DNA of 64,000 nucleotides from contig JAQTPI010000001.1 of assembly GCA_028748975.1 (NCBI GenBank), positions 64,354 to 128,353 on the forward strand, read 5' to 3'. The notes under the pieces were generated by a model, which was not told the origin of the DNA, did not search any database, and saw only the letters and a program-made list of their open reading frames with translations. Shown here piece by piece: positions 8,023 through 62,310 of this stretch; the stretch's first letter is position 1; every line of letters starts with the position of its first letter. A program made the position numbers and the translations under genes. The stretch is from Patescibacteria group bacterium (GTDB lineage Bacteria > Patescibacteriota > Patescibacteriia > UBA2196).

Positions 8023-8069
8023 GGGAGTATGTTAAATTTTTAATTTTGTAATTTTTAATTTTTAAATAG

Positions 8070-8228
8070 ACGAGCGCGCCTATCGGCGAATACCTAATAA
8101 CAACCACCCCGAGCCGACTGCTGTCGGCTCACCCCTCCTTCGAAAGGAGGGGATAACCACGCTGCTATCCTCCCCTTTCGAAGGGGAGGTCTCCGACAGC
8201 AGTCGGAGGGAGGAGTTGTAATTATTCG
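8070..8228. repeat. family R3 composite GC-rich palindromic module (CCCCTCC-TTCGAA-GGAGGGG units plus a CGCCTATCGGCG box)
   Basis: cccctccttcgaaaggagggg and tcctcccctttcgaaggggagg are nested inside gagccgactgctgtcggctc ... ccgacagcagtcgg. Confidence 0.7.
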
Positions 8229-8324
8229 CAAAATTTGCCAGTAATTAGCATTAATTCGTAGCCGTTTTTCCACTAATATTAGCCAAAAAACAGCATTTTA
8301 AGGTATTTATTAAAGTTATCCACT

Positions 8325-8352
8325 TGACAAGAGATTTTAGACATGCTATAAT
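8325..8352 (+). promoter_or_regulatory. sigma70-type promoter
   Basis: TTGACA-16-TATAAT. Preceded by a conserved TTAAAGTTATCCACTT module. Confidence 0.65.
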
Positions 8353-8406
8353 TGAAATGGTACAAAATTATAGCCAATAGACAATTCATTTTAAAAAGGA
8401 GGTTGC

Positions 8407-8646
8407 ATGAGTGAAAACAACTACATTCATGGTGATGTGGAAGTAAAGAGATCTTTCGGAGGAATATTCTTCAGTATAAGATTTTTAGGGCATGACGAAG
8501 AAATCTGTCTACCTCGTGAGCTGAAAAAACTGGTGGACGTCGACGACAACATCGGAGTCGAATACGAAATACTTCCCATAGGCCAAAGACGTGCCACTAA
8601 GGTGACAAAAAACGGCAATACCATCTGGAAGGGTAAGTTGGAATAA
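8407..8646 (+). CDS. hypothetical small protein (possible OB-fold)
   Basis: 79-aa ORF with a strong AAAGGAGG site and a consensus promoter at 8325-8352. An intrinsic terminator follows. Confidence 0.45.
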   Translation: MSENNYIHGDVEVKRSFGGIFFSIRFLGHDEEICLPRELKKLVDVDDNIGVEYEILPIGQRRATKVTKNGNTIWKGKLE

Positions 8647-8676
8647 TTTATTGCCCCAGTCATCAGATCCAGACAT

Positions 8677-8712
8677 CCAGTGCTAAAAACGCTGGATGTT
8701 TTTTATTTTCTG
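8677..8712 (+). terminator. intrinsic terminator
   Basis: catccag-tgctaaaaacg-ctggatg followed by TTTTTTATTTT. Confidence 0.7.
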
Positions 8713-8784
8713 AATCTCTGTCTTCATGGAAATAACAGAACTTGTTAACTCGTTAACTCGTTAATAAAATAACTTTAAAATTTA

Positions 8785-8835
8785 CTGACGAGATCCCTCG
8801 GCTCCTAACTTCTCTAAAAGGCCGCTCGGGATAAA
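8785..8835 (-). repeat. family R2 element (TTTATCCCGAGCGGCC..GAGCCGAGGGATCTCG), directly 3' of the dnaE stop
   Basis: Reverse complement of caatttatcccgagcggccttttagagaagttaggagccgagggatctcgtcag. Confidence 0.75.
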
Positions 8836-8842
8836 TTGCGGG

Positions 8843-26975: not shown

Positions 26976-27012
26976 ATTCGCACCATTCGCACATAATTCG
27001 CACTAATTCGCA
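26976..27012. repeat. family R4 half-array (ATTCGCA x4) in the gap 5' UTR
   Basis: attcgcaccattcgcacataattcgcactaattcgca, downstream of an extended -10 TGGTATAAT. Confidence 0.65.
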
Positions 27013-27059
27013 TAAAACCGAATGACTGCGGGTGGGGCTGGCGAATAATAATAAACTCT

Positions 27060-28635: not shown

Positions 28636-28667
28636 AACAATATTTTAGATGCTTTTTATTTTGTAAT

Positions 28668-28694
28668 TTAGCACTCTCTTGACGAGAGTGCTAA
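28668..28694 (+). promoter_or_regulatory. CIRCE operator (HrcA binding site)
   Basis: Perfect TTAGCACTC-N9-GAGTGCTAA immediately upstream of hrcA. Confidence 0.9.
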
Positions 28695-28786
28695 TAATAA
28701 TATATAATGAATATAGAAACCAAAAAACAGGCTATTTGAGCTTAAAAATGGCTAAATTAGCCCATAAATTTGTGTGGATAACCCCT

Positions 28787-29469: not shown

Positions 29470-29560
29470 GCTACGAATGTACGAATAAAACGAATTTACA
29501 AATAAATCACAAAATTATTCTGCGGCCATTCGTATATTCGTACGATTCGTAAATTTGTAG
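29470..29560. repeat. family R4 inverted array between hrcA and grpE
   Basis: gctacgaatgtacgaataaaacgaat...attcgtatattcgtacgattcgtaaatttgtag. Same terminal sequences as 3795-3884. Confidence 0.75.
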
Positions 29561-29567
29561 ATTTTTT

Positions 29568-30083
29568 ATGCATAAACACAAAGAACAACAAAATGAAAAT
29601 CAGGCGGAGCCAAAAGATAAGTGTCCGCAATGTGATGAATACCTCAACGGCTGGAAGCGCGCTTTGGCTGATTATGAAAATTTGAAAAAACAGACGGCTA
29701 AAGAAAAAGAAGAGTTTGCCAAGTTCGCCAACACCAATTTAATCATCGGTTTGATTCCAGTTTATAACAACCTCAAAATTTCTTTTGGCCATCTACCAGC
29801 AGATTTAAAAAATAATAATTGGGTTAAAGGAATTGAACACATCAGAAAACAAATGTTGGATGTTTTGGAATTCAATGGCGTGGAAGAAATTGTGCCGAAA
29901 ATTGGCGAGAAGTTTAATCCGGAGCTGCACGAAGCGGTGAAGAGTGAAGAGCAAATAGTGAATAGTGAACAGATAACAGACGACAAACAACAAACAACAG
30001 ATCATAAAATAGTAAAAGTTTTGAGTGATGGTTACAAATTAAACGGCCGGGTGTTTATGCCGGCGAAAGTGGTTGTCGCTTAA
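29568..30083 (+). CDS. grpE: nucleotide exchange factor GrpE
   Basis: GrpE coiled-coil and C-terminal beta region, directly downstream of hrcA. Confidence 0.88.
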   Translation: MHKHKEQQNENQAEPKDKCPQCDEYLNGWKRALADYENLKKQTAKEKEEFAKFANTNLIIGLIPVYNNLKISFGHLPADLKNNNWVKGIEHIRKQMLDVLEFNGVEEIVPKIGEKFNPELHEAVKSEEQIVNSEQITDDKQQTTDHKIVKVLSDGYKLNGRVFMPAKVVVA

Positions 30084-40045: not shown

Positions 40046-40170
40046 ACAACCACCCCGGCTCGGTCTGTTGACCTCGCCAACCCCTCCTTCGAAAGGAGGG
40101 GATATTGGTCGCTATCCTCCCCTTTCGAAGGGGAGGTGTTCCGCCGCAGCGGAACGGAGGGGTTGTAATA
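40046..40170. repeat. family R3 composite module
   Basis: Same architecture as 8070-8228: cccctccttcgaaaggagggg...cctcccctttcgaaggggagg flanked by ccgc..gcgg arms. Confidence 0.7.
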
Positions 40171-40202
40171 ATTGAACAATTTAGCAATTTAGCAATTAAA
40201 TA

Positions 40203-45632: not shown

Positions 45633-45668
45633 ATCAAACCTCGCCCAAAACGAGGTTTTTTTTATTTC
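45633..45668 (+). terminator. intrinsic terminator
   Basis: aaacctcg-cccaaaa-cgaggttt followed by T8. Confidence 0.75.
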
Positions 45669-45699
45669 CACTCTTTTAGAAGGAAAAGAAGTTATCCAC

Positions 45700-45790
45700 T
45701 TTTATTGGTTATTGTCAGATGTTAAAAAGTGGTGTATAATTAATGTAGAGTGGTAAAAAGTGGAAAAAAGTGGATAACTAGTGTAAAACA
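45700..45790 (+). promoter_or_regulatory. dcw promoter with MraZ operator repeats
   Basis: TTGTCA (45712-17) -17- TATAAT (45735-40). AAGTGG boxes recur at a 10-bp period downstream (45727, 45751, 45758, 45768). They are flanked by the inverted pair GTTATCCACTT (45704) / AAGTGGATAAC (45767). Confidence 0.7.
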
Positions 45791-45838
45791 ATTTGGTTTT
45801 AAGCTAAGTTTTGAACTAACCACGCTAAAAATAACACA

Positions 45839-45882
45839 ACGGGATCCCTCGGCCGATGAAATATCGGCCTCGGGATGACAAA
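45839..45882 (-). repeat. family R1 element in the mraZ 5' UTR
   Basis: acgggatccctcggccgatgaaatatcggcctcgggatgacaaa. Confidence 0.7.
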
Positions 45883-45891
45883 CACAGTAAC

Positions 45892-46323
45892 ATGTTCATC
45901 GGCGAATATCTTCATGGTTTAGACGCTAAAAACAGATTGGCTATTCCAGCCAAATTTCGGGCTGAACTGAAAAGCGGGGCAGTCTTGACGCGTGGTTTGG
46001 ATTCCTGCCTTTTTCTTCTAACCAAAAAAGATTGGGAGAAATTTATGGAAAAAATCTCCGGCTCGCCTTTGGGCAAAGCCGATGCCCGCGGGTTTTCCCG
46101 TTTTATGCTGGCTGGCGCCATGGAAGTGAAATTAGATGGGCTTGGCCGCATTCTCTTGCCCGATTATCTTAAAAAATATGCCGCTTTGGCCAAAAAAGCC
46201 GCCATCATCGGCGTCAACAACCGTTTGGAAATTTGGGACGAAGCCAAATGGGCGTTGTATAAAAAAGGCATTGAAAAACAGGCTGACGAGCTGGCGGAAA
46301 GAATGGGAGAGTTGGGCGTGTAA
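45892..46323 (+). CDS. mraZ: transcriptional regulator MraZ
   Basis: Duplicated DXXXR-type MraZ domains (LDAKNRLAIP and LDGLGRILLP). The upstream ORF-track extension reads through a repeat element. Confidence 0.85.
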   Translation: MFIGEYLHGLDAKNRLAIPAKFRAELKSGAVLTRGLDSCLFLLTKKDWEKFMEKISGSPLGKADARGFSRFMLAGAMEVKLDGLGRILLPDYLKKYAALAKKAAIIGVNNRLEIWDEAKWALYKKGIEKQADELAERMGELGV

Positions 46324-46408
46324 GCATGAAAACATAAAAGCATTAAAGCATGAAAACAATTCCTTATTGATTTGTTTTAATGCTCTAGTGTTTTAATGTT
46401 TTAATGTT

Positions 46409-47287
46409 ATGGCTATCCATAAATCAGTTTTATTGAAAGAGGTTTTAGAATATTTAAATCCGGAACCAAACCATAATTTTATTGATTGTACTTTCGGCGG
46501 TGGGGGACACAGCCGGGAAATCTTGAAAAGAATCGCGCCAGCTGGTAAACTTTTGGCCATTGATGCGGATGCTGAAACCAGAAATCAGAAACCAGAAATC
46601 AGGGATGACAAAAATTTTATCTTTGTCAACGCTAACTTCCGCGATTTGGAAAACATTGTCAAAGAAAATTTTCCTTACCCTGTTAATGGAATTCTGATGG
46701 ACTTGGGGCTTTCTTCGGATCAATTGGAATCTTCCGGCCGCGGTTTCACTTTTCAAAAAGATGAGCCCCTGGACATGCGCTTTGATACTCGCAAAGAAAC
46801 CAAAGCGGCTGACATCCTTAATTTTGGTTCTCTAGATTATTTAAAAAATATATTTGAAAATTACGGCGAAATTCGCCCAGCGGAAAAATTGGCCAGAAAA
46901 ATTATTGATTTAAGAAAACAAAAGAAATTTCAGACCACCTTTGATCTGGTGGCGGCGGTGGACGAAGCGGGCATTAAATCTCGCAGTCCCAAAATTAATT
47001 CGGCCACGCTGGCTTTTCAGGCGCTGCGCCTCGCGGTCAATGATGAACTGGGCGCCCTGAAAAATGTTTTGCCCGCGGCTCTAAATGTTTTAGCGCCCGG
47101 CGGCCGGTTGGCTGTAATTTCTTTTCACGCCCTGGAAGATAAAATTGTCAAAAATGTTTTTCGTGATTGGTACAAAGCCGGGGCGGTCAGACTTTTAACC
47201 AAAAAACCAGTCGCGCCGAGTTGGGAAGAAGTGAAAACGAATAATAGAAGTCGTAGTGCTAAATTAAGGGTGATTGAAAAAATATAA
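46409..47287 (+). CDS. rsmH: 16S rRNA m4C1402 methyltransferase RsmH (MraW)
   Basis: FIDCTFGGGGHS SAM motif, directly downstream of mraZ. Contains an in-frame tandem repeat (gaaaccagaaatca x2) at 46570-46600. Confidence 0.9.
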   Translation: MAIHKSVLLKEVLEYLNPEPNHNFIDCTFGGGGHSREILKRIAPAGKLLAIDADAETRNQKPEIRDDKNFIFVNANFRDLENIVKENFPYPVNGILMDLGLSSDQLESSGRGFTFQKDEPLDMRFDTRKETKAADILNFGSLDYLKNIFENYGEIRPAEKLARKIIDLRKQKKFQTTFDLVAAVDEAGIKSRSPKINSATLAFQALRLAVNDELGALKNVLPAALNVLAPGGRLAVISFHALEDKIVKNVFRDWYKAGAVRLLTKKPVAPSWEEVKTNNRSRSAKLRVIEKI

Positions 47288-47289
47288 AA

Positions 47290-47380
47290 TGCGAATTATT
47301 ACAAATTTTGTGCGAATTTTACGAACAGATTATTTGATGTTTATTCGCACAATTCGCAGGTAATTCGCCATTAATTCGCA
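47290..47380. repeat. family R4 inverted array after rsmH
   Basis: tgcgaattattacaaattttgtgcgaattttacgaac...attcgcacaattcgcaggtaattcgccattaattcgca. Confidence 0.75.
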
Positions 47381-47549
47381 TAAGACACGGTAAAAAACAA
47401 CGAGCGGGTGAAAAATGAATAAATTTAATAAATAGTAGGGTTAATAGAAATATATAGGGAAAGCGTAAGCCGTCGAACTGACGGTAAAAACAAAAATAAA
47501 AATGTCCAAGTATTTTTCATTTTGCAATGATAAGCAGAAAAGGTTAAAT

Positions 47550-47864
47550 ATGGGCAAAAAAACACGCCGCGCCAAATGTTTAAACTTGAATTTAACTTCG
47601 CGCCTTTTTCTTTTGGGCTTGGTTTGTTTTGGTGTTTTTGCCTATGTTTTAACCGTCAACAACGGTTCGGTCAAGGGTTTTGAAATTTCCCGTTTGGAGA
47701 GCCAGCTTAATGAGCTGCAACTTCAAAATCAAAAATTAACTGACCAAGTGCAGGCCACCAAATCCCTTTCCACTCTGGAAGATAAAGTTAAAACACTCCA
47801 AATGGTGGCGGTTTCCAACATAGAATATCTGGATGTTAGTGGACCAGTGGCGATGGCAAAATAA
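47550..47864 (+). CDS. ftsL: cell division protein FtsL-like
   Basis: Small single-transmembrane protein with a coiled coil, at the canonical dcw position between rsmH and ftsI. The start is set at the internal Met. Confidence 0.55.
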   Translation: MGKKTRRAKCLNLNLTSRLFLLGLVCFGVFAYVLTVNNGSVKGFEISRLESQLNELQLQNQKLTDQVQATKSLSTLEDKVKTLQMVAVSNIEYLDVSGPVAMAK

Positions 47865-47865
47865 A

Positions 47866-47950
47866 AACTCAAAACTCAAGGAAAGGAAAACAGAAATTAG
47901 AAATCAGAAAACAGGGAAATCCTGATTACTAATTTCTGATTTCTGATTAC
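47866..47950. repeat. inverted array of GAAATCAG units preceded by AAAACTCAAAACTCA (R8)
   Basis: cagaaattagaaatcagaaaacagggaaatcctgattactaatttctgatttctgattac. The AAAACTCAAAACTCA unit recurs at 60900. Confidence 0.55.
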
Positions 47951-47969
47951 AATCTATGGCCCTTGCTTC

Positions 47970-49751
47970 TTGCTTTTTGTTTATTGTGTTTTGTGTTTTG
48001 AAATATCTATGTTTCACCGTCACGGCATCATCAAAAATAGCCATAAGGAAAATTCGGCGGCGCGGATAACAATTGTTGCCGCGCTGTTTTTCTTTTTGGC
48101 GGTTTTAATTGGACTCCGCCTTTTTTATTTGCAGGTCTGGCGCCATGGCTCTTTTCAAAATCAAAGCGATGAACAGCGTGGGTCTTTAAAAAAAATCATA
48201 CCTAGCCGTGGTTTAATTTATGCCGCCGATCAAGCTGGTGATAATCCATTGGTGGCCGATAATAAAGAATTATATCTGCTTTTCGCCGTGCCGCCGCAAA
48301 TTAAAAACGCCACCGCCACCGTGGATGCGCTCAATAAAATTTGGCCCCTGACGCAAACCGAACGGGAAAAAATTTGGCGCCAACTCCAAAAAGTAAATGA
48401 CCCCTACGAGCCCCTGCGGCATTATTTGACTGTGGAAGAAAAAAATAAAATTTTCGACTTGCAAATAGCTGGTTTGAATTTTTCTCCGGAAACCAAGAGA
48501 TATTATCCGGAAAAAAATATTTTTTCGCACCTGACCGGTTTTGTGGGTTTTGTCGGCGACAGCCAGGTGGGCAGTTATGGTTTGGAAGAATTTTTTGAAA
48601 GTGAATTAAAAGGCCAGAGTGGGGAAGTGAAACTGGAAAAAGACCCAGCCGGCCGTTTAATCGGCGTGGGTGACTTTGAAATCACTCCGGCTGTTAATGG
48701 CGCGGATTTATATTTAACCATTGACCGCCAAGTGCAATTCAAAACTTGTTCGGTTTTGGCGGAGACAATCAAAAAATTTGAAGCCGAGGGCGGTTCGGCT
48801 TTGGTGCAAGATCCCAACACTGGCGCGATTTTGGCGCTCTGCAATAACCCCGATTTTGATCCCAATAATTATAATCAAGTTGCCAGCGCCAGCGTCTATA
48901 CTAATCAGGCCATTGCTTCCCAATTTGAACCCGGTTCAATTTTTAAAGCTTTTACCATGGCCGTCGCGCTTGATGTTGGCGCGGTTACGCCGGAAACCAC
49001 CTATGAAGACAAGGGTGTTTTGGTTTTTGGCAAAGAAACTGTCCGCAATGCCGCTGATAAAGTCTATGGTCTCTCCAGCATGACCAAAGTCTTGGAATAT
49101 TCCATCAACACTGGCGCAGTTTTCGCTGCCGAGAGCGCCGGCCGCGAAAATATGAAAAAATATCTGGAGAATTTTGGTTTTGGCGTCAAGACCGGAATTG
49201 AATTTAAAAGCGAAGCCAAAGGCGATATTTCTTCTCTTAAAAATAAAAGTGCCATTTATTTGGCTACTTCTTCTTTTGGCCAAGGCATTGCGGTCACGCC
49301 CATTCAAATTTTAAATGCTTTTTCTGCCATCGCGAATGGCGGCAATCTCTATCAGCCTTTTGTTGTCAAAAAAATTATTTCCGCGGATGGCCGCAACAAA
49401 GAGATCGAGCCAAAAATAGTCCGCCGGGTAATTTCCGAACGCACCGCCAATGTTTTGAAGGCCATGTTGGTGTCGGTGATTGAAAATGGGCACGGCAAAC
49501 CCGCCGCGGTCAAAGGTTATTATGTCGGCGGCAAAACCGGTACTGCCGAAATTCCTTCGCCTGCCGGCGGCTATCTTAACGCTTTCAATCATTCTTTTGT
49601 TGGTTTTGCGCCGGCTGGGAGTCCGCGTTTCACTGTTTTTGTCAAAATAACCAATCCTAAAATGCGTTTTGCCGAAAGTACGGCCGCGCCCGCATTTGCG
49701 GAAATCATGAAATTTCTGCTAAACTATTACCAGGTTCCGACGGAACGGTAA
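47970..49751 (+). CDS. ftsI: class B penicillin-binding protein (FtsI/PBP2-like transpeptidase)
   Basis: N-terminal transmembrane helix, dimerisation domain and the SxxK (SIFK), SxN (SIN) and KTG (KTGTA) motifs. The exact start is uncertain. Confidence 0.85.
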   Translation: MLFVYCVLCFEISMFHRHGIIKNSHKENSAARITIVAALFFFLAVLIGLRLFYLQVWRHGSFQNQSDEQRGSLKKIIPSRGLIYAADQAGDNPLVADNKELYLLFAVPPQIKNATATVDALNKIWPLTQTEREKIWRQLQKVNDPYEPLRHYLTVEEKNKIFDLQIAGLNFSPETKRYYPEKNIFSHLTGFVGFVGDSQVGSYGLEEFFESELKGQSGEVKLEKDPAGRLIGVGDFEITPAVNGADLYLTIDRQVQFKTCSVLAETIKKFEAEGGSALVQDPNTGAILALCNNPDFDPNNYNQVASASVYTNQAIASQFEPGSIFKAFTMAVALDVGAVTPETTYEDKGVLVFGKETVRNAADKVYGLSSMTKVLEYSINTGAVFAAESAGRENMKKYLENFGFGVKTGIEFKSEAKGDISSLKNKSAIYLATSSFGQGIAVTPIQILNAFSAIANGGNLYQPFVVKKIISADGRNKEIEPKIVRRVISERTANVLKAMLVSVIENGHGKPAAVKGYYVGGKTGTAEIPSPAGGYLNAFNHSFVGFAPAGSPRFTVFVKITNPKMRFAESTAAPAFAEIMKFLLNYYQVPTER

Positions 49752-49881
49752 TAATTTTTTTATAGCCTGCCCTGAGCGCTAGCGAAGGGCACCAGCCGAA
49801 TTTTGGGGAGGCAATATTAAAATCGCTAGAACCATCAAAAAATCCCTTTGTTACTCCGTTACTTTGTTACTTTATTATTCA

Positions 49882-49939
49882 CCGCTTCGGCCACGGGATC
49901 CTTCGCCTCGCCCATGCTTGGGCGATGGCTCAGGATAGA
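49882..49939 (-). repeat. family R1 element with an internal insertion, just upstream of murF
   Basis: ccgcttcggccacgggatccttcgcctcgcccatgcttgggcgatggctcaggatag. Confidence 0.6.
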
Positions 49940-49952
49940 CTTAGTAAAACCT

Positions 49953-51230
49953 ATGAAAAAACTTCTTGATAAAACTTTAGCCGTTTTAGCTAAAGCCATA
50001 CTAAAGAAATACCGCCCCAAAATAATCGGCATCACTGGTTCCATGGGCAAGACCTCGGCTAAGGAGGCGGTTTTCACTGTTTTGAAAGACAAATTTAATG
50101 TCCGCCAAAATATCAAAAACTATAATACTGAAATTGGCCTGCCCTTAACCATCATCGGCGCCAAATCCGGCGGCAAGAACTTTTTTAAATGGCTGTCTGT
50201 TTTTGGACGCGCCTTGTTTTTATTAATCATTAAAGATCAGAAATATCCGTCAGTTTTAATTTTGGAAATGGGCGCTGACCATCCAGGCGACATTCAGCAT
50301 CTGGTCAAAATTGCTCCTTGCGATTTGGCCATCGTCACTTCCATCGGCCCCACCCATCTGGAATTTTTTGGCTCGGTGGAAAACGTAAAAAAAGAAAAAG
50401 AAAACATTGTGGCCCACCAAAAACCCACCGCCGTTGCCATTTTGAATTTTGACGATGAATTGGTCATGGCCATGAAAAAGAAAACCCTGGCCAAAGTTAT
50501 CACCGTGGGTTTTGGCGACGGAGCTGACATTCGCGTCACCGACACCAGTTTTGGTTTGGATGAAAAGACCAAAAAACCCTATCTCACTTTCAAGCTCCAT
50601 CATGCTGGCTCCCTTGTGCCGGTCAAACTTACCAAATGTTTGGCCGCCACTCACGTTTATTCTTTTCTTTTTGCCGTCGCCATCGGCACGGAGATGGGTT
50701 TTAGCACCTTGGCCATGATTGAATTATTGAAAGATTTTCAACCGCCGCGTGGCCGCATGAATCTTTTATCCGGCATCAAACACACCGAGCTGATTGACGA
50801 TACTTATAATTCTTCCCCGAGCGCCGCGCTGGCTGCTTTGGCTGTTTTATCAAAAATGACTGCCAAAAGAAAAATCGCCGTCCTCGGCGACATGCTGGAA
50901 TTGGGCGCGGAAACGGAAACGGAACACCAAACAGTCGGTAGAAAAGTTGCGGAATTAAATTTGGATTTACTTTTGGCCGTGGGCGAACGCGCGCGCAATT
51001 TTATTGTGGGCGCTCTAGCTCTCGGCTTTGATAAAAATAAAATTTTTCATTTTGACAATGTTTCCGCCGCCGGCCAATTTTTGCAGGATAAAATGGAACC
51101 GGGTGATTTGGTTTTAATTAAAGGCTCGCAGGGCGCGCGCATGGAAAAAATTGTTAAAGAAGTCATGGCTGAGCCGGAACGCGCCAAAGAACTTTTGGTG
51201 CGTCAAGACGAGGAGTGGATGAGAAAGTGA
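49953..51230 (+). CDS. murF: UDP-MurNAc-tripeptide--D-Ala-D-Ala ligase MurF
   Basis: GITGSMGKTS P-loop and Mur ligase middle and C-terminal domains. The upstream ORF-track extension is a translated repeat element. Confidence 0.85.
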   Translation: MKKLLDKTLAVLAKAILKKYRPKIIGITGSMGKTSAKEAVFTVLKDKFNVRQNIKNYNTEIGLPLTIIGAKSGGKNFFKWLSVFGRALFLLIIKDQKYPSVLILEMGADHPGDIQHLVKIAPCDLAIVTSIGPTHLEFFGSVENVKKEKENIVAHQKPTAVAILNFDDELVMAMKKKTLAKVITVGFGDGADIRVTDTSFGLDEKTKKPYLTFKLHHAGSLVPVKLTKCLAATHVYSFLFAVAIGTEMGFSTLAMIELLKDFQPPRGRMNLLSGIKHTELIDDTYNSSPSAALAALAVLSKMTAKRKIAVLGDMLELGAETETEHQTVGRKVAELNLDLLLAVGERARNFIVGALALGFDKNKIFHFDNVSAAGQFLQDKMEPGDLVLIKGSQGARMEKIVKEVMAEPERAKELLVRQDEEWMRK

Positions 51231-51386: not shown

Positions 51387-51424
51387 ATTCGCAAAATTCG
51401 CCGGTAATTCGCACTAATTCGAAT
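51387..51424. repeat. family R4 half-array abutting a promoter
   Basis: attcgcaaaattcgccggtaattcgcactaattcgaat, ending 12 nt before the TTGACA at 51436. Confidence 0.6.
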
Positions 51425-51435
51425 AATTACAAAAT

Positions 51436-51537: not shown

Positions 51538-51705
51538 ATGAAAGAATGTTCTTTTTGCGGCATGCCTCTTAAAAGCGATGCCGAAGCTGACCTTTGTGAT
51601 TTTTGCCTCAATGATGACGGCAAAGAAATGCTGGCCGCTCCCGCAGCGGAAGAGCTTGATTTGGAAAACCCGACTTCCACCGGCTGGACCGAGACAGTGG
51701 AGTAG
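51538..51705 (+). CDS. hypothetical small zinc-ribbon peptide
   Basis: 55-aa ORF with CxxC...CxxC. Consensus promoter at 51436-51464. Not in the ORF track (too short). Confidence 0.35.
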   Translation: MKECSFCGMPLKSDAEADLCDFCLNDDGKEMLAAPAAEELDLENPTSTGWTETVE

Positions 51706-51800: not shown

Positions 51801-51832
51801 AGCGAGTTTTTAACTTGCTCTTTTTTTATTCG
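51801..51832 (+). terminator. intrinsic terminator
   Basis: gagcgagtt-tttaa-cttgctc followed by T7. Confidence 0.5.
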
Positions 51833-51966
51833 CAAAATTCGCCCGCCTCAACTCGCGGTCGCTCATCGACGCGAGGCGGGCTCTAAATTCGCATTTATTA
51901 GCAGTTAATTTTTGGCTAAGATTAGCCAAAAAAATGAATTATTTTAAAGTTATCCACTTTTTGCTC

Positions 51967-51995
51967 TTGACAAGTTTCCCAAAGTGCGCTATAAT
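51967..51995 (+). promoter_or_regulatory. sigma70-type promoter
   Basis: TTGACA-17-TATAAT. The same upstream module as the 8325 promoter. Confidence 0.65.
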
Positions 51996-52041
51996 AGAGA
52001 TAGGTAAAATAAAAATAAAAGCACCTAAATAAGAGGGAAAA

Positions 52042-52179
52042 ATGACTAAAAGTAGCTGCGTAGGATTATTTGTGGTGGTTATGGTCGCCATGGCCATGTC
52101 CATCAGCTCGCTTTTCTCCGCCAGTAAGGAGAAAACCGAGCACTCCACGACGATTGAAGTCGTCGTGACGGCCGAGTAG
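52042..52179 (+). CDS. hypothetical 45-aa hydrophobic peptide
   Basis: AAGAGGGAAAAATG site and a consensus promoter at 51967-51995. The N-terminus is signal-peptide or transmembrane-like. Confidence 0.35.
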   Translation: MTKSSCVGLFVVVMVAMAMSISSLFSASKEKTEHSTTIEVVVTAE

Positions 52180-52299
52180 TTTTAAGAGAATTCTAATCAA
52201 AAAGACAAACCACTTCTGTTGGGCAGGAAAAGATTTAATTTTTCTGACCCGCACCAAAATTCATCATCCGGCCGCGGAGCATTCAACATTTGCTCCGCA

Positions 52300-52392
52300 C
52301 CATTTTCCTAATCGGTAGTGATAAACTAGTGGTTAGAAAAATGGGCAAACGACCCAGAAGTTTCAGAATTTAAAACGCACCTGGCGTGTCCA
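52300..52392 (+). repeat. island direct repeat, copy 1 (R5)
   Basis: ccattttcctaatcggtagtgataaactagtggttagaaaaatgggcaaacgacccagaagtttcagaatttaaaacgcacctggcgtgtccagg. The 47-nt imperfect hairpin is cccattttcctaatc / ggttagaaaaatggg. Confidence 0.8.
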
Positions 52393-52418
52393 GGCAAAAT
52401 TAAATAAGGAGGTGATGT

Positions 52419-52730
52419 ATGAATACGGGAATAAGCGCAGGAACTTTGTTCACAATTTATTTCTTCTCTCTGATGGGGCTTCTGATTTTGATGAATCCCC
52501 GTGGAGGAAAAAAAATTGTGGCCACGGTTGGTTTCGTTCTTTTCATTTTTGGAACGACCAGCGCCTTACCCAGACTTCTTTTGCTTTTGGGCGTCAATGT
52601 GACCATAGGGGATGTTGGTCACATATTTCGGTTACAGCCAATATTCATCTGGCTGGGTTTGATTATTTATCTTGCGGGATTGTCGGTCAATACGCTTCCC
52701 AAGAAAAAAATGAAACTCGTCCGAAACTGA
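52419..52730 (+). CDS. hypothetical small membrane protein (island gene 1)
   Basis: AAGGAGG site, two to three transmembrane segments. Preceded by island repeat copy 1. Confidence 0.45.
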   Translation: MNTGISAGTLFTIYFFSLMGLLILMNPRGGKKIVATVGFVLFIFGTTSALPRLLLLLGVNVTIGDVGHIFRLQPIFIWLGLIIYLAGLSVNTLPKKKMKLVRN

Positions 52731-52756
52731 TTCGCCCCAACATCAACCTGGCGGCG

Positions 52757-52852
52757 CGTCTGCGAAACATCGTAGACGCCCGCCAGCCCATTTTCCTAAT
52801 CGGTAGTGATAAACTAGTGGTTAGAAAAATGGGCAAACGACCCAGAAGTTTC
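52757..52852 (+). repeat. island direct repeat, copy 2 (R5)
   Basis: 96 bp with 3 mismatches to copy 1. Preceded by a GC-rich hairpin. Confidence 0.8.
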
Positions 52853-52901
52853 AAAATCTAAAACGCGCCTGGCGTGTCCAGGAAATATCAAGGAGGAAGA
52901 A

Positions 52902-53603
52902 ATGAAGAAGTTGTTTGTGGTTTTAATGGCGGTCGTTATTTTGACCCCCGTGATTTGTCTTGCCGGTAGCAGTGAAAAATTCGAGCAAATTGGTGAGCCG
53001 TTTTTGATTATTGTTCCTGCGGATTACCATCACGACACCTACATGGAGTCGTTTGGTAAAAAATATAGTTCAGAATTTCCCAACTACCGTAGCTCTGGCG
53101 TGACTGCTGACAAATTCAGTCAGGTCACAACCAAGCTTTTGCCGAATCAAAAACTCGCGGTTACGGTCTACTTGGTGAAGTCCTGGACAATTTCAAGACA
53201 AGAAATCATAACATTTCTGAAAGCCAATAATGCCTTTCTCGTTGGAGCTCAGGGCTTGGCCTTGACCTTTGAACAAAAGCGTGATCAACTTCCCATAGGG
53301 TGTATCACTTCTTTTGATCAGAAAGAACACCTCTGGCGAGACATCGAAGGACACACAATGGAATTGAAGCTGTTTAAATTTGGACCCCCTAATGAATACC
53401 ATCCCGCTTTCGATTCTTGGCTTGGCCCTTCAGATGCATTAAACATCGGAGATATTTTTTTTCTTTGTTTTCGTGATGGTTTTACCGCGGTTGAAAAGAA
53501 ACAAAACGAAATCGCGGTTGAAAAGAAACAAAACGAAATCAAAGATCTGGAGGAAAAACTCGCTAAGGCAAAAGAAGAATTAGAAAGACTGAGTGGAAAG
53601 TAA
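52902..53603 (+). CDS. hypothetical secreted coiled-coil protein (island gene 2)
   Basis: AAGGAGGAAGAAATG site and a signal peptide. The C-terminus carries a duplicated AVEKKQNEI unit from a 27-bp tandem repeat. Preceded by island repeat copy 2. Confidence 0.5.
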   Translation: MKKLFVVLMAVVILTPVICLAGSSEKFEQIGEPFLIIVPADYHHDTYMESFGKKYSSEFPNYRSSGVTADKFSQVTTKLLPNQKLAVTVYLVKSWTISRQEIITFLKANNAFLVGAQGLALTFEQKRDQLPIGCITSFDQKEHLWRDIEGHTMELKLFKFGPPNEYHPAFDSWLGPSDALNIGDIFFLCFRDGFTAVEKKQNEIAVEKKQNEIKDLEEKLAKAKEELERLSGK

Positions 53604-53661
53604 AAATTTCGTTAACAATCAATACTGGCGCGCCTATTCTTAACAGAATAGTCCGCGCCAG

Positions 53662-53718
53662 CCCATTTTCCTAATCGGTAGTGATAAACTAGTGGTTAGA
53701 AAAATGGGCAAACGACCC
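53662..53718 (+). repeat. island direct repeat, copy 3 (R5, 57-bp core only)
   Basis: Identical hairpin core cccattttcctaatcggtagtgataaactagtggttagaaaaatgggcaaacgaccc, then it diverges. Confidence 0.8.
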
Positions 53719-53782
53719 ATTTTCCTCCTGGCCTTAGGGGGAATGTAAAAAATTACATTACAAATTTTTAGGAGGAAGATCA

Positions 53783-54022
53783 ATGATAGCTTTTGGAATC
53801 ATCGTGATGCTAATTGGAATTCTTTTTGCCCTCCTTCATTTTTTTGCCGGGGGCAACAAGAAATGTCTGTCCGTGACCGGTCTCTGTTGCGCCATCTTTT
53901 CATTGACGCCGTCATTGAAGACATGGCTCCACAATGACCCGAACGCGCTGGTATTTCAGGTCATATCTTTTCTTATCGGCGTGATTCTTTTTTTCATCGG
54001 ACTGACAGGCAAAAAAAACTGA
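53783..54022 (+). CDS. hypothetical small membrane protein (island gene 3)
   Basis: TAGGAGGAAG site, two transmembrane segments, and a GG(N/K)KK loop resembling gene 1. Preceded by island repeat copy 3. Confidence 0.45.
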   Translation: MIAFGIIVMLIGILFALLHFFAGGNKKCLSVTGLCCAIFSLTPSLKTWLHNDPNALVFQVISFLIGVILFFIGLTGKKN

Positions 54023-54198
54023 AAACTGATCAGCCGAAATTTTCCCGAAGGAAAATTTCGGCTGATCCTTCCACTTTTGTCCCTCACATCTGGTGGGGAA
54101 TAAATAGGAAGAAAATAAAATTTTTTCCAATATAAAAAAACTTTCATAATTCATAGACCGTCTTCTGCCAAAAGCAGAGACAAGAGGAGGAAATAGTC

Positions 54199-54687
54199 AT
54201 GGAAAAGCACCTGAACAAATTATTTTGGATTTTTGTAATCATGGCGGCCTTTGCCCTTGTCTGCCGTTCCAAGCCGGCGCGGTCGCAATCCGCTTCCAAC
54301 TCCGCCGCCGCTTTGGAAAAAACCCGTCAGGCCATCGCCGTTTTGGCAACGCTTGACCGCGACAAGTCAATCACCGGCCTTTCGGAGAAATATTTTCTCT
54401 GGGAAGCCAGGGTGCGGCTGGAATTGATCAATGTTTCCGCCGGTGATCTGCGGGAACTGGTATCCGACATTGGCGCCGTCGCCAGTTGGACCAAAAGTCC
54501 CCATGGTGGAAAGATCGCCGACCTCGTCTTAGCCGAGATGGCCAAACGGGCGAAAAAAATGTCCAAAAACGAAGTATATCAATACTTCGTTAAAGACAAC
54601 AACGTCGCCTGGAAACTGGCCTATACTGGCGCCGGAAACCTGATGGAGGTCTGGGACAAGGCGGGCGTCACCGAGTATCCCGTGTAA
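54199..54687 (+). CDS. hypothetical secreted protein
   Basis: GAGGAGG site and a signal peptide. GC-rich (~55%) relative to the flanks. Confidence 0.5.
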   Translation: MEKHLNKLFWIFVIMAAFALVCRSKPARSQSASNSAAALEKTRQAIAVLATLDRDKSITGLSEKYFLWEARVRLELINVSAGDLRELVSDIGAVASWTKSPHGGKIADLVLAEMAKRAKKMSKNEVYQYFVKDNNVAWKLAYTGAGNLMEVWDKAGVTEYPV

Positions 54688-54796
54688 ATTTTGACAGTTT
54701 GTCTGTCAGGCCGTTGCATCATATGCAGCGGCCTTTTTTATTTGTTTTTAATTTTATCCCTAATTACTGATTACTAATTACTTATTACTCCTCAGT

Positions 54797-54823
54797 TTGA
54801 CACCAATCTTTTTTCATGATAAA
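54797..54823 (+). promoter_or_regulatory. sigma70-type promoter
   Basis: TTGACA-17-TAAAAT. Confidence 0.5.
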
Positions 54824-54904
54824 ATGGAATTATCAAACCAAAAGAAAATTCAAAACCTAAAAAAGCCCGTCTCTACCAAACAGAGTCAAGGCAAGGAGGA
54901 AAAA

Positions 54905-55450
54905 ATGAAAAAAAGTAGCTGGCTGGTACTGTTGATGATTTTTATAGCCATTTTTCAGACAAAATTGGCGTTATCACAGAGTAGCTCTGTTTCTACATCT
55001 CAAAACATTCCGATTTTTTTGGACATTCCCGACAGCGTCGTGATAAATTTTGCCAAATCTTTGACGCCTGGTGCTCTACCACCCACTAATCCGCCGCAGC
55101 CCTGGAAAAAATGGGATATCTGGCCTGGTTATGAAAAATCATATTTCTTAAACTTTGATTATCGGCGATCAAATAACCGAATGCCGTTTATATCTTTTAT
55201 GACTAATTATGATACGGTATATTCTTATTTTATTATTTTTAGGGTTCCTAAAAATCAGATCCAACCAAAGTTTGACCCAATCCTTAATGATCGGAAAGTC
55301 CGAAGAAAAATAATCTTTCACAAAATCGGATATTGGCGTTATTGCTGCCTTTGTGGTGGCCAGGCGATGAATATCACCCCCAATCACATCGCCCGCTCCT
55401 TGGCCGATCTGGAAGGAAATTTTGAACAAGACTATTTGGCTAAACCTTAA
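54905..55450 (+). CDS. hypothetical secreted protein
   Basis: AAGGAGG site and signal peptide MKKSSWLVLLMIFIAIF. The TTG start at 54797 in the ORF track coincides with the -35 of its promoter and is rejected. Confidence 0.45.
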   Translation: MKKSSWLVLLMIFIAIFQTKLALSQSSSVSTSQNIPIFLDIPDSVVINFAKSLTPGALPPTNPPQPWKKWDIWPGYEKSYFLNFDYRRSNNRMPFISFMTNYDTVYSYFIIFRVPKNQIQPKFDPILNDRKVRRKIIFHKIGYWRYCCLCGGQAMNITPNHIARSLADLEGNFEQDYLAKP

Positions 55451-55511
55451 TAGGTTTAGCCAACCCGAAGTCTCATGACTCCGGGTTTTTTTATTTGGCC
55501 TAATGGCCTCC

Positions 55512-55553
55512 TACGAATTACGAATCCCGAGTACTCGGGACGAATATACGAAT
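55512..55553. repeat. family R4 inverted half-sites flanking the TCCCGAGTACTCGGGA palindrome
   Basis: tacgaattacgaatcccgagtactcgggacgaatatacgaat. Confidence 0.6.
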
Positions 55554-55558
55554 GACGG

Positions 55559-55620
55559 TTATCCCCTCCTTAATAAGGAGGGGAAAGGGGAGGTAAACTC
55601 GCCGATAGGCGCGTATTATT
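55559..55620. repeat. family R3 module
   Basis: ttatcccctccttaataaggaggggaaaggggaggtaaactcgccgataggcgcgtattatt. Confidence 0.65.
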
Positions 55621-55691
55621 TCCGTTTGCTTTTTTGGTATATTTTTGGTACCATTATTTATGTTAATATGTTAAAAAGTTAAAATGCTTTT

Positions 55692-57639: not shown

Positions 57640-57765
57640 AATATCCCCTCCTTTCGAAGGAGGGGTGCGAGCGAGAGCGAGCGGGGTGGTTGTGGTAGAA
57701 TATTTTTACAACCCCTCCGTTCCGCTGCGGCGGAACACCTCCCCTTCGAAAGGGGAGGATAACGA
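57640..57765. repeat. family R3 composite module
   Basis: atcccctcctttcgaaggaggggtg...cctccccttcgaaaggggagg with ccgttccgctgcggcggaac. Confidence 0.7.
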
Positions 57766-57808
57766 CGAGATCCCTCGTCGTCCCGCGCCCGTGACTCCTC
57801 GGGATGAC
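57765..57808 (-). repeat. family R1 element
   Basis: acgagatccctcgtcgtcccgcgcccgtgactcctcgggatgac. Confidence 0.7.
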
Positions 57809-60304: not shown

Positions 60305-60333
60305 TTGACAAACCTTTCCCCATGCTCTATAAT
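60305..60333 (+). promoter_or_regulatory. sigma70-type promoter of the infA/alpha-operon region
   Basis: TTGACA-17-TATAAT. Confidence 0.65.
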
Positions 60334-60337
60334 TACC

Positions 60338-60567
60338 CTAGACCCTAATGTTTGGGGCTTATATTCTTACAATGGAATACTTCCTAAACCCGAAAGTTTT
60401 GGCTAACCTTAGCCAAAAATATGACTTTTGGGTGGTAGGTTTTGTAAGAAATATGAGCTATCCACAAAAGAAAGCTCGTATTTTTTTAGTGCTTTTTGTC
60501 ATTCCGAACTTGTTTCGGAATCTCAAAAGTAGATGCTGAAATAAATTCAGCATGACAAACAAAATAA
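60338..60567 (+). ncRNA. candidate structured leader or sRNA between the 60305 promoter and infA
   Basis: Hairpins ttggctaa-cc-ttagccaa, attccgaa-cttgtt-tcggaat, atgctgaa-ataaa-ttcagcat and a terminator-like gagct..agctc-T7 at 60456-60490. The ORF-track product at 60348 is low-complexity. Confidence 0.25.
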
Positions 60568-62205: not shown

Positions 62206-62209
62206 TAAA

Positions 62210-62300
62210 TGCGAATTATTGGCGAATTACTTGCGAATTGTGCAAATAGCTACCAAATAATCTGTTCGCAAAATTCGCACAAAATTCGTAAGAATTCGTA
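62210..62300. repeat. family R4 inverted array between rpsK and rpsD
   Basis: tgcgaattattggcgaattacttgcgaatt...ttcgcaaaattcgcacaaaattcgtaagaattcgta, ending 11 nt before the rpsD ATG. Confidence 0.75.
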
Positions 62301-62310
62301 TAAAGTTTTT

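What the first reader, a model, noticed from the sequence alone, without database searches (positions are those of the whole stretch)
45700..45790. MraZ operator at the dcw promoter; the same GTTATCCACTT motif also sits in front of two other consensus promoters that drive tiny ORFs
Downstream of TTGTCA-17-TATAAT there are AAGTGG repeats at an exact 10-bp period. This is the known MraZ operator arrangement of direct GTG-containing repeats downstream of the dcw promoter. The repeats are bracketed by GTTATCCACTT (45704-45714) and its inverse AAGTGGATAAC (45767-45777). The exact 11-mer also occurs at 8310 and 51950. Each of those copies is embedded in a ~50-bp conserved module (ATTAGCCAAAAAA-N10-20-TTAAAGTTATCCACTT) immediately upstream of a TTGACA-TATAAT promoter. 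Those promoters drive a 79-aa ORF (8407) and a 45-aa hydrophobic peptide (52042). Four exact copies of an 11-mer in 64 kb is far above chance. The motif is also a one-mismatch DnaA box (TTATCCACA). So either MraZ or another regulator co-controls these tiny genes with cell division, or this is a reused promoter-upstream cassette.
Basis: partly seen in the sequence, partly recalled or inferred. Interest (0 to 1): 0.6.

Follow-up and report, generated by a model that had tools for sequence, protein, structure and literature searches.

The report
MraZ operator plus reused DnaA-like box
The cell-division (dcw) promoter of this uncultured Patescibacteria genome carries an ordinary MraZ repressor-binding array, and one extended box from it, which also resembles a DnaA box, has been copied into a duplicated promoter module that drives two orphan mini-genes inserted only in this lineage.

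Summary

The 457xx site is a canonical MraZ operator. GTGG boxes sit at 45729, 45750, 45760 and 45770, and the first is fused to the -10. They lie directly upstream of an mraZ gene that keeps D11, K13, R15, D82 and R86. Most of 84 Patescibacteria/Bacillota mraZ loci show the same layout.

The 11-mer is the lineage's extended box, GTGGATAAC. It is about 200-fold enriched upstream of mraZ across the phylum. In the four closest relatives a copy is kept upstream of the -35 and another as the last array box.

The other two copies are not independent. They lie in paralogous ~130-nt promoter modules (E = 1e-8) that head insertions absent from close relatives. One insertion holds a 79-aa strict orphan; the other begins with a 45-aa hydrophobic ORF. 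Each module has a single box and no phased array.

Which protein reads the box is unresolved:
- MraZ docking on one box: favoured, about 0.4.
- DnaA: about 0.3. The box is a DnaA-box consensus, and such boxes are six-fold enriched in this clade's intergenic DNA.

This is a known kind of operator with a new variant.

The parts
45636..45658 (+). Intrinsic terminator of the upstream gene. It isolates the dcw promoter as its own transcription unit.
   Evidence: 8-bp stem followed by a T-run.
45691..45701 (+). Distal box GTTATCCACTT, which reads AAGTGGATAAC on the minus strand. It ends 10 nt upstream of the -35.
   Evidence: Exact match. (A)AGTTATCCACTTTT is kept at the same place in L084, L081 and L208 while the flanks diverge.
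45712..45740 (+). dcw/mraZ promoter: TTGTCA, 17 nt, TATAAT.
   Evidence: 11 of 12 consensus positions. No transcription start site has been mapped.
45725..45778 (+). MraZ operator array. A-rich GTGG boxes start at 45729 (fused to the -10 as GTGGTGTATAAT), 45750, 45760 and 45770.
   Evidence: Spacing is 21/10/10. The same architecture is seen in most of 84 mraZ loci. Published MraZ boxes are GTG(G/T) plus a 6-nt spacer (PMC12957436).
45768..45778 (-). Terminal array box AAGTGGATAAC, the second copy of the 11-mer. It forms a 14-nt inverted repeat with the distal box.
   Evidence: Kept as AAGTGGATAAC or AAGTGGATAAA in L084, L081 and L208.
45892..46323 (+). mraZ (143 aa), first gene of the dcw cluster.
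   Evidence: Pfam MraZ, E = 4e-35. D11, K13, R15, D82 and R86 are present.
8215..8352 (+). Promoter module, copy A. It holds an ATTCGCA array, TTAGCCAAAAAA, TTAAAGTTATCCACTT (box at 8315-8325, overlapping the -35 by 2 nt) and TTGACA-17-TATAAT at 8324-8352.
8407..8646 (+). 79-aa ORF with an AAGGAGG Shine-Dalgarno sequence. It is followed by the terminator at 8671-8701 and is a strict orphan.
   Evidence: The only database hit is itself, both in the 5.8-billion-cluster protein collection and among 1.84e9 representatives.
8023..8842 (.). Lineage-specific 820-nt insertion between dnaE and the 376-aa gene. It holds module A, the 79-aa ORF and terminator hairpins.
   Evidence: In relatives L205, L206 and L207 the two genes are 22-117 nt apart.
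51820..51995 (+). Promoter module, copy B. It has the same blocks as copy A plus a 39-nt hairpin insertion. The box is at 51949-51959, ending 7 nt upstream of the -35. TTGACA-17-TATAAT lies at 51967-51995, with AAAGTGCGC just before the -10.
52042..52179 (+). 45-aa hydrophobic ORF, first gene of a ~3.9-kb island (51830-55690) of small membrane or secreted ORFs.
   Evidence: No tblastn hit in about 1.3 Mb of related loci. The island is absent from L081-L083, where the Mur ligase is followed by a 53-aa ORF and then alaS.

Best explanation
**Step 1, dcw operator (shown by sequence and comparison, about 0.9).** Region 45691-45778 is the autoregulated dcw promoter. An MraZ ring binds four phased A-rich GTGG boxes. 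One box is fused to the -10 and three cover the start and early leader, so bound MraZ would occlude RNA polymerase.

**Step 2, what the 11-mer is (shown).** AAGTGGATAAC is the extended form of the box, typical of Patescibacteria. It is used twice at this promoter. One copy is the last array box. The other is inverted, 10 nt upstream of the -35, a position that carries such a box across the phylum.

**Step 3, the other two copies (shown, about 0.85).** They belong to one duplicated ~130-150-nt promoter module. The module is built from this genome's stock intergenic parts: ATTCGCA arrays, a TTAGCCAAAA half-palindrome, the box and a consensus promoter. It heads two insertions found only in this lineage and drives orphan small ORFs. 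The box and its flanks match the mraZ distal box over 15 nt, so it was probably copied from there.

**Step 4, function of the extra copies (inferred, about 0.4).** The single box next to or overlapping the -35 docks an MraZ oligomer in the one-box mode seen by cryo-EM. This would give weak MraZ-dependent repression that ties these mini-genes to dcw expression.
For: **Operator**
- MraZ keeps its DNA-reading residues.
- Consecutive GTGG spacings in 80 loci peak at 10 (113 cases) and 21 (54 cases).
- The -10-fused GTGGTGTAnAAT box recurs in other loci.
- Literature: GTG(G/T) boxes with 6-nt spacers, 3-4 cooperative boxes, the start site inside box 1, and an octamer that can bind one box specifically (PMC12957436). 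B. subtilis uses GTGG[A/T]G x3. Mollicutes use AAAGTG[T/G].

**The 11-mer as a MraZ-type box**
- GTGGATAAC occurs 23 times forward and 0 reverse within 200 nt upstream of mraZ, against 9 elsewhere in 1.2 Mb. GGATAAC occurs 42 times forward and 0 reverse.
- It sits 10 or 21-22 nt from the next GTGG and lies inside 10-bp arrays in L006, L011, L017, L024, L027, L209 and L210.
- One third of distal boxes read TGGGGATAAC. That keeps a TGGG/GTGG core but breaks the CACA part of a DnaA box.
- In this clade the box flank (AAAAGTGG) equals the array-box flank.
- E. coli MraZ binds a site overlapping the mioC DnaA box (PMC4446571).

**Module and insertions**
- (E = 1.4e-8).
-.
-.
- The mraZ promoter's best non-self match in the window is the 51947 promoter (E = 0.019).
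Against: **The extra sites have one box each, not a phased array.**
- Published MraZ binding is cooperative and weakens stepwise as boxes are lost.
- The M. genitalium mraZ mutant shows no changes outside the dcw cluster.

**MraZ reads only about 3-4 bp, yet the element is conserved over 10-11 bp.**
- The T before GTGG correlates with ATAA after it (odds ratio 12.9, p = 2e-16).
- That correlation points to a reader with a longer footprint.

**The distal box changes orientation between close clades at a constant position.**
- It is inverted in the window, L081, L084, L208 and L210.
- It is forward in L209 and Paceibacteria.
- That is awkward for a polar ring of subunits.

**Most non-mraZ boxes in this clade read TTATCCACA, the exact DnaA consensus.**

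**Nothing here measures binding or expression.**
Confidence: 0.42

Rival explanations
1. The GTTATCCAC[A/T] element is a DnaA box. DnaA would bind it beside the -35 of the dcw promoter and of the two module promoters. MraZ would read only the plain GTGG boxes. Because every DnaA box contains GTGG, the terminal array box could be contested by both proteins, coupling replication initiation to division-gene and mini-gene expression.
For: - The 11-mer matches TTATCCACA at 8 of 9 positions (sequence; established DnaA-box consensus).
- 34 of 84 mraZ upstream regions carry a perfect TGTGGATAA/TTATCCACA, and 54 of 84 carry TGKGGATAA.
- The distal-box consensus is TG[T/G]GGATAAC, and the T(-1)/ATAA coupling (p = 2e-16) implies a 9-10-bp reader.
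- Orientation flips at a fixed position, as expected for a monomeric reader of an asymmetric site.
- In this clade single TATCCAC[AT] boxes are enriched in non-mraZ intergenic DNA: 10 observed against 1.67 +/- 1.29 expected. Most read TTATCCACA and lie next to promoters: window 14193, L207 11057, L208 3473/3546, L209 1578 and L210 4074.
- The very 14-mer AAAGTTATCCACTT sits in box clusters directly upstream of dnaA ORFs in five unrelated metagenome contigs.
Against: - All four copies in the window, and the mraZ copies in L081, L084 and L208, have T rather than A at box position 9.
- One third of distal boxes in the phylum read TTATCCCCA, which alters the CACA core.
- Across 80 other genomes the element is almost exclusive to mraZ. 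It is always co-oriented and phase-locked (10 or 21-22 nt) with the GTGG boxes, which fits one protein array better than two proteins.
- No dnaA gene or oriC of this phylum was available to define its own DnaA box.
Confidence: 0.3
2. The two extra copies have no regulatory role. They are passengers in a promoter module that this repeat-rich genome duplicated, and the module simply captured part of the mraZ upstream region.
For: - The window is full of reused intergenic modules: terminator hairpin families, ATTCGCA arrays and a 104-nt leader repeated three times.
- The two copies share 15 nt with the mraZ distal box, including flanks that need not be functional.
- Both lie in recent, lineage-specific insertions with orphan ORFs.
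- The box position relative to the -10 differs between them: -32 against -41.
Against: - The 16-mer TTAAAGTTATCCACTT is the longest exact block in modules that are otherwise 65-75% identical with indels on both sides of it. That suggests selection on the block.
- Boxes of the same family flank other small-ORF or small-transcript promoters in relatives (L208, L207).
- Such boxes are six-fold enriched in this clade's intergenic DNA.
Confidence: 0.15
3. An unidentified lineage-specific transcription factor with a 10-11-bp site (AGTTATCCACW) reads the box, and the resemblance to MraZ and DnaA boxes is coincidental.
For: The clade consensus extends to 11 bp: AGTTATCCAC[A/T] in 5 of 10 non-mraZ intergenic boxes plus the mraZ copies. 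In L208 the boxes occur as an inverted pair bracketing a promoter.
Against: - No candidate regulator gene is linked to the sites.
- Patescibacteria encode few regulators.
- The motif coincides at every position with two known readers' sites.
Confidence: 0.1

Closest known systems
MraZ operators (MraZ-binding repeats) of Mycoplasma genitalium / M. gallisepticum, Bacillus subtilis and E. coli
   Same: - Sits directly upstream of mraZ at the head of the dcw cluster.
- Has 3-4 direct GTG(G/T) boxes at a 10-bp period overlapping the core promoter and start.
- The cognate MraZ carries the DXXXR motifs (K13, R15, R86).
   Different: - One box is fused to the -10, with a 21-nt skip to the next three.
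- The boxes are extended to GTGGATAAC.
- An extra distal box lies upstream of the -35, inverted in this clade.
- Copies of the extended box occur at two non-dcw promoters.
E. coli mioC promoter, where the MraZ site overlaps a DnaA box (Eraso et al. 2014, as cited in PMC4446571)
   Same: A non-dcw promoter whose MraZ-type site coincides with a DnaA-box sequence. It is a precedent for shared or competing sites.
   Different: That case has repeated TGGGN units and experimental binding. Here each extra promoter has one box and no binding data.
DnaA-box-regulated promoters (DnaA acting as a transcription factor)
   Same: A 9-mer of the TTATCCACA family close to the -35 or -10 of promoters, working in either orientation.
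   Different: - Position 9 is T in all four window copies.
- No clustering of boxes.
- The phylum's own DnaA box is not known.
- At mraZ the box is phase-locked to the GTGG array.
Duplicated or 'mobile' promoter modules: homologous upstream regions in front of unrelated genes (concept recalled from the literature, not checked here)
   Same: Two homologous ~130-nt promoter-bearing segments lie in front of unrelated orphan ORFs within lineage-specific insertions.
   Different: - Only two full copies are seen in 64 kb.
- No transposase or terminal repeats.
- The module is a mosaic of several separately dispersed sub-modules.

Membership tests
MraZ operator (dcw promoter, 45691-45778) | Lies immediately upstream of mraZ at the 5' end of a dcw cluster. 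| tested here: met
   mraZ, rsmH, an ftsL-like gene, ftsI and a Mur ligase follow in order (Pfam).
MraZ operator (dcw promoter, 45691-45778) | Three or more direct GTG(G/T) boxes at a ~10-bp period. | tested here: met
   GTGG starts at 45729, 45750, 45760 and 45770. Shuffles give 0.14 such chains. The definition comes from PMC12957436 and bioRxiv 10.1101/2022.02.09.479790.
MraZ operator (dcw promoter, 45691-45778) | Boxes overlap the core promoter or transcription start. | tested here: inconclusive
   Box 1 abuts the consensus -10 and boxes 2-4 lie 10-38 nt downstream. The start site is predicted, not mapped.
MraZ operator (dcw promoter, 45691-45778) | The cognate MraZ has the conserved DNA-reading residues. 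| tested here: met
   D11, K13, R15, D82 and R86 are present, compared with PMC12957436.
MraZ operator (dcw promoter, 45691-45778) | The architecture is conserved in related genomes. | tested here: met
   Four close relatives and most of 80 Patescibacteria/Bacillota loci.
MraZ operator (dcw promoter, 45691-45778) | MraZ binds the site and represses transcription. | not testable with these tools
   Needs EMSA or a reporter assay.
MraZ operator (extra sites 8315 and 51949) | Three or more phased GTG(G/T) boxes. | tested here: not met
   Each site has a single box. At 51982 there is only a degenerate AAAGTGC. These are therefore not filed as MraZ operators, only as possible one-box docking sites.
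DnaA box | Match to the 9-mer TTATCCACA. | tested here: inconclusive
   All four window copies match at 8 of 9 positions, with T at position 9. Relatives and other phylum members often match perfectly.
DnaA box | The same motif is clustered at oriC or the dnaA promoter of the same organism. | not tested
   No dnaA gene is present in the window or in any fetched Patescibacteria locus.
DnaA box | Bound by DnaA domain IV. | not testable with these tools
   Needs EMSA or DAP-seq.
Duplicated promoter module | Significant sequence homology between upstream regions of unrelated genes. | tested here: met
   blastn E = 1.4e-8 over 127 nt. nhmmer E = 4e-36 and 4e-32 for the two members. The downstream ORFs are unrelated.
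Duplicated promoter module | Presence or absence varies between close relatives. | tested here: met
   Both copies lie in insertions missing from L205-L207 and L081-L083.
Duplicated promoter module | Many copies genome-wide. | not tested
   Only 64 kb of the 128-kb contig is available. The source MAG is not in the contig index.

The most novel reading that the evidence does not exclude
Across Patescibacteria the dcw promoter carries, at a fixed position just upstream of the -35, a consensus DnaA box (TGTGGATAAC). Because that box contains GTGG, it is also a MraZ box. DnaA and MraZ would then compete or cooperate on shared sites, coupling replication initiation directly to division-gene transcription in these minimal genomes. 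In this lineage the dual box has also been co-opted into a spreading promoter module that places newly acquired mini-genes under the same cell-cycle control.
Probability: 0.25. Interest if true: 0.7.

Novelty: new variant of a known kind. Interest (0 to 1): 0.4.

Why it matters
MraZ is among the most conserved bacterial regulators, yet its targets outside the dcw cluster are disputed. How replication and division are coupled in ultra-small, regulator-poor Patescibacteria is unknown.

This work yields three things:
- A phylum-wide operator layout: a distal TG[T/G]GGATAAC box, a -10-fused box and phased GTGG pairs.
- A concrete, testable question: does MraZ, DnaA or both read the extended box?
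- A natural test case in which the same box stands alone in front of two consensus promoters.

If only MraZ reads it, the finding is a modest extension of known biology. If DnaA reads it, it would reveal a direct link between replication and division.

Tried and rejected
- **Source genome.** Neither the window's MraZ nor the 79-aa protein is in the contig index, so the rest of the 128-kb MAG contig could not be read.
- **Metagenome scan.** It was useful only to show the 14-mer inside dnaA-upstream box clusters.
- **Patescibacteria dnaA/oriC.** A regex search over the 84 Patescibacteria/Bacillota loci and the window found none. The later scan of all loci found dnaA only in unrelated metagenome contigs. 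The phylum's own DnaA box could not be defined.
- **Whole-promoter descent.** I tested whether the 51967 promoter descends as a whole from the mraZ promoter. Global alignment scores among 16 strong promoters are unremarkable. Only a local 52-nt match is seen (E = 0.019).
- **RNA explanation.** Rfam gives no hit in the window. The upstream arm of the inverted 11-mer pair lies upstream of the promoter, so an RNA hairpin is excluded.
- **GGCTAA-NN-TTAGCC palindrome.** It does not co-occur consistently with the box: only 2 perfect copies, and its spacing to the box varies.
- **79-aa protein.** Pfam gives nothing. The single-sequence AlphaFold model has pLDDT 58 and is all-beta, too poor for a fold search. 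An AbrB-like guess made from the sequence is unsupported.
- **Mobile-element origin of the insertions.** No blastn match for the 820-nt insertion in phages or for the 3.9-kb island in plasmids.
- **Missing DNA.** Two relatives (P0007, P0025) returned gene tables but no DNA.

Full report
**Organism and context.** The window is about 41% G+C. Its proteins match uncultured Patescibacteria (Parcubacteria-type) MAGs. The 79-aa ORF and DnaE are identical to proteins of an NCBI MAG contig of 128,430 bp, but that contig is not in the searchable contig index. ORFs at 45892-51230 are mraZ, rsmH, a DivIC/FtsL-like gene, ftsI and a Mur ligase. The site therefore sits at the head of a dcw cluster. A terminator at 45636-45658 separates it from the upstream gene.

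**Checking the observation.** GTTATCCACTT occurs exactly at 8315(+), 45691(+), 45768(-) and 51949(+). Shuffles give 0.84 matches at up to one mismatch, and none of 100 shuffles reaches the observed five.
- The dcw promoter is TTGTCA (45712) - 17 nt - TATAAT (45735).
- GTGG starts at 45729, 45750, 45760 and 45770, a spacing of 21/10/10.
- This is the only such phased A-rich array in the window.
- The two 11-mers at this promoter form a 14-nt inverted repeat, AGTTATCCACTTTT.
- The module blocks ATTAGCCAAAAAA and TTAAAGTTATCCACTT, the consensus promoters at 8324 and 51967, and the 79-aa and 45-aa ORFs are all present as described.

**The dcw site is a canonical MraZ operator.** Published operators have three or four direct GTG(G/T) boxes with 6-nt spacers that overlap the promoter and start. 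They are bound cooperatively by an MraZ ring through K13, R15 and R86 (PMC12957436). B. subtilis uses GTGG[A/T]G x3 (bioRxiv 10.1101/2022.02.09.479790). Mollicutes use AAAGTG[T/G] (PMC8475190). The window's MraZ has D11, K13, R15, D82 and R86. I fetched 80 mraZ loci from species-representative genomes and read their upstream regions.
- Nearly all carry GTGG boxes whose consecutive spacings peak at 10 (113 cases) and 21 (54 cases).
- In many loci one box is fused to the -10 as GTGGTGTAnAAT, exactly as here.

**What the 11-mer is.** GTGGATAAC and GGGGATAAC are about 200-fold enriched within 200 nt upstream of mraZ. GGATAAC occurs 42 times forward and 0 reverse there. GTGGATAAC occurs only 9 times in the other ~1.18 Mb. 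The box appears in two settings.
- As a distal box. The consensus is TG[T/G]GGATAAC, at a nearly fixed position: GGATAA starts 35-36 nt before the -10 in about 25 Paceibacteria-type loci, and 21-22 nt before the next GTGG.
- Inside 10-bp arrays downstream of the -10. There the consensus is A-GTGG-ATAA.

In the window's own clade both uses are kept while the flanks diverge.
- L084 (MraZ 94% identical), L081 (87%) and L208 (75%) all have (A)AGTTATCCACTTTT inverted at -43 from the -10, and AAGTGGATAAC or AAGTGGATAAA as the last array box.
- L210 (70%) has an inverted TTATCCACA at the same place.
- L209 (72%) has a forward TGTGGATAAC.

**The other two copies are paralogous and recent.** Regions 8215-8352 and 51820-51995 align over about 130-150 nt (blastn E = 1.4e-8, 65% identity with indels; nhmmer). 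Their shared blocks are TTATTCGCAAAATT, ATTAGCA, ATTAGCCAAAAAA, TTAAAGTTATCCACTT, CTTGACAAG and GCTATAAT. The 16-mer holding the box is the longest exact block.

Synteny shows that both copies head insertions.
- In L205, L206 and L207 (DnaE 74-82% identical) dnaE is followed after 22-117 nt by the 377-aa gene. In the window, 820 nt intervene. They hold the module, the antisense 79-aa ORF and its terminator at 8671-8701.
- In L081-L083 the Mur ligase is followed by a 53-aa CxxC ORF and then alaS. In the window a ~3.9-kb island lies between the orthologous 55-aa ORF and alaS. It starts with the module and the 45-aa ORF and holds small membrane or secreted ORFs.

The 79-aa protein is a strict orphan. 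Its only hit is itself, both in the 5.8-billion-cluster collection and among 1.84 billion representatives. Neither insertion matched the collection it was searched against: phages for the 820-nt one, plasmids for the 3.9-kb island. The window is rich in other reused intergenic parts, so module reuse is a habit of this genome.

**Is the box in the modules functional, and who reads it?** Each module has one box. In module A it overlaps the -35 by 2 nt. In module B it ends 7 nt upstream of the -35, much as at mraZ, where the gap is 10 nt. Module B also has AAAGTGCGC-TATAAT where mraZ has AAAGTGGTG-TATAAT. The box plus flanks matches the mraZ distal box over 15 nt (AAGTTATCCACTTTT). The mraZ promoter's best non-self match in the window is the 51947 promoter (E = 0.019). 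This suggests the box was copied from the dcw promoter.

Evidence for a real site family:
- In nine loci of this clade (174 kb), after masking the mraZ upstream regions, TATCCAC[AT] occurs 10 times in 24 kb of intergenic DNA. The shuffle expectation is 1.67 +/- 1.29, with a maximum of 7 in 500 shuffles.
- Several boxes sit at promoters of tiny genes or transcripts. In L208 an inverted pair TGTGGATAAC / GTTATCCACA brackets TTGACA-17-TATAAT in front of a 56-aa two-helix peptide. In L207 a box lies 8 nt upstream of a promoter for a ~60-nt hairpin transcript.

**MraZ versus DnaA.**

For MraZ:
- The GTGG core.
- Near-exclusive association with mraZ across 80 genomes.
- Strict co-orientation and 10 or 21-22-nt phasing with the plain boxes.
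- The T/G polymorphism (TGTGG/TGGGG), which keeps a MraZ-type core but breaks the DnaA CACA.
- The A-rich flank shared with the array boxes in this clade.
- The cryo-EM one-box binding mode.
- The E. coli precedent of MraZ binding over the mioC DnaA box (PMC4446571).

For DnaA, or another reader of 10 bp or more:
- MraZ reads only TG(T/G), yet T before GTGG and ATAA after it are tightly coupled (odds ratio 12.9, p = 2e-16).
- 34 of 84 mraZ upstream regions hold a perfect DnaA 9-mer.
- The distal box flips orientation at a constant position.
- Most non-mraZ boxes in the clade read TTATCCACA.
- The 14-mer itself lies in dnaA-upstream box clusters in five unrelated contigs.

I could not obtain an oriC or dnaA locus from this phylum, so its own DnaA box is unknown.

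| Reading | Weight |
|---|---|
| MraZ | ~0.4 |
| DnaA | ~0.3 |
| No function (hitchhiking) | ~0.15 |
| Another factor | ~0.1 |

**Verdict.** The dcw element is an already-known kind of operator. Three things are new:
- The phylum-typical extended, DnaA-like box.
- Its fixed distal position.
- Its reuse, in this one lineage, in a duplicated promoter module driving orphan mini-genes.

Interest is moderate. It would rise considerably if DnaA proved to read the box.

Noticed in passing
window 8224-8263, 14150-14190, 23330-23375, 26976-27015, 29470-29575, 47289-47381, 51387-51426, 62209-62301: ATTCG[CT]A heptamers are arranged in ~10-11-bp phased arrays, often as inverted half-arrays. 35 of 47 copies lie in the 19% of the window that is intergenic. 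A 93-nt array between rsmH and ftsL has an 88% inverted twin between rpsK and rpsD. Similar arrays occur upstream of mraZ in other Patescibacteria (L009, L025). They may be binding arrays for a nucleoid-associated protein or a global regulator.
   Followed up: partly
window 8125-8226, 12535, 21145, 40074-40173, 42801, 55556-55620, 56489, 57644-57767; and 8788-8839, 19114, 24951, 36173, 51724: Two families of shared G+C-rich hairpin modules lie after many genes. One is of the CCCCTCCTTCGAAAGGAGGGG type, the other of the TTTATCCCGAGCGGCC...GAGCCGAGGGATCT type. They look like REP-like 'standard part' terminators.
   Followed up: no
window 52300-52403, 52788-52891, 53663-53766: A 104-nt direct repeat occurs three times (94% and 63% identity to the first copy). 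Each copy lies just upstream of a small membrane or secreted ORF in the lineage-specific island. It could be a shared leader or promoter module.
   Followed up: no
window 28667-28782: The hrcA promoter has a perfect CIRCE element (TTAGCACTC-N9-GAGTGCTAA) overlapping its -35. A perfect TGTGGATAAC lies in the leader, just before the likely ATG at 28787.
   Followed up: partly
window 14193-14201 (minus strand); L205 9254: A perfect TTATCCACA lies directly after a TATACT -10 in a divergent promoter region, upstream of a 100-aa ORF (13833-14135, minus strand). It is conserved in the relative L205.
   Followed up: partly
window 51910-51931 and 60397-60418: A perfect 22-bp palindrome, TTTTGGCTAA-NN-TTAGCCAAAA, occurs twice. 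One copy is in module B. The other is inside a ~230-nt structured leader between a consensus promoter (60305-60333) and infA (60568). A degenerate half occurs at 8268-8289 and another in L209 at 1596. It could be an operator or an RNA hairpin.
   Followed up: partly
window 51538-51705; L082 15814-15975: A conserved 53-55-aa protein with two CxxC pairs (zinc-ribbon-like) is encoded right after the Mur ligase in both genomes. In L082 it is preceded by TGTGGATAAAT.
   Followed up: partly
L208 3473-3797: A consensus TTGACA-17-TATAAT promoter is bracketed by an inverted pair, TGTGGATAAC and GTTATCCACA, 73 nt apart. It drives a 56-aa peptide with two hydrophobic helices. The bracket mirrors the one at the window's mraZ promoter but with opposite arm orientation.
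   Followed up: partly
L207 11050-11175: cTATCCACA lies 8 nt upstream of TTGACA-17-TATACT. The promoter is followed by a ~60-nt segment ending in a hairpin plus a U-run, a possible small RNA.
   Followed up: no
window 45780-45891: The mraZ leader holds a block conserved in L081 and L084 (TTTTAAGCTAAGTT) and a GGGATCCCTCGGCC...GGCCTCGGGAT hairpin related to the dispersed terminator-hairpin family. L208 lacks this leader.
   Followed up: no
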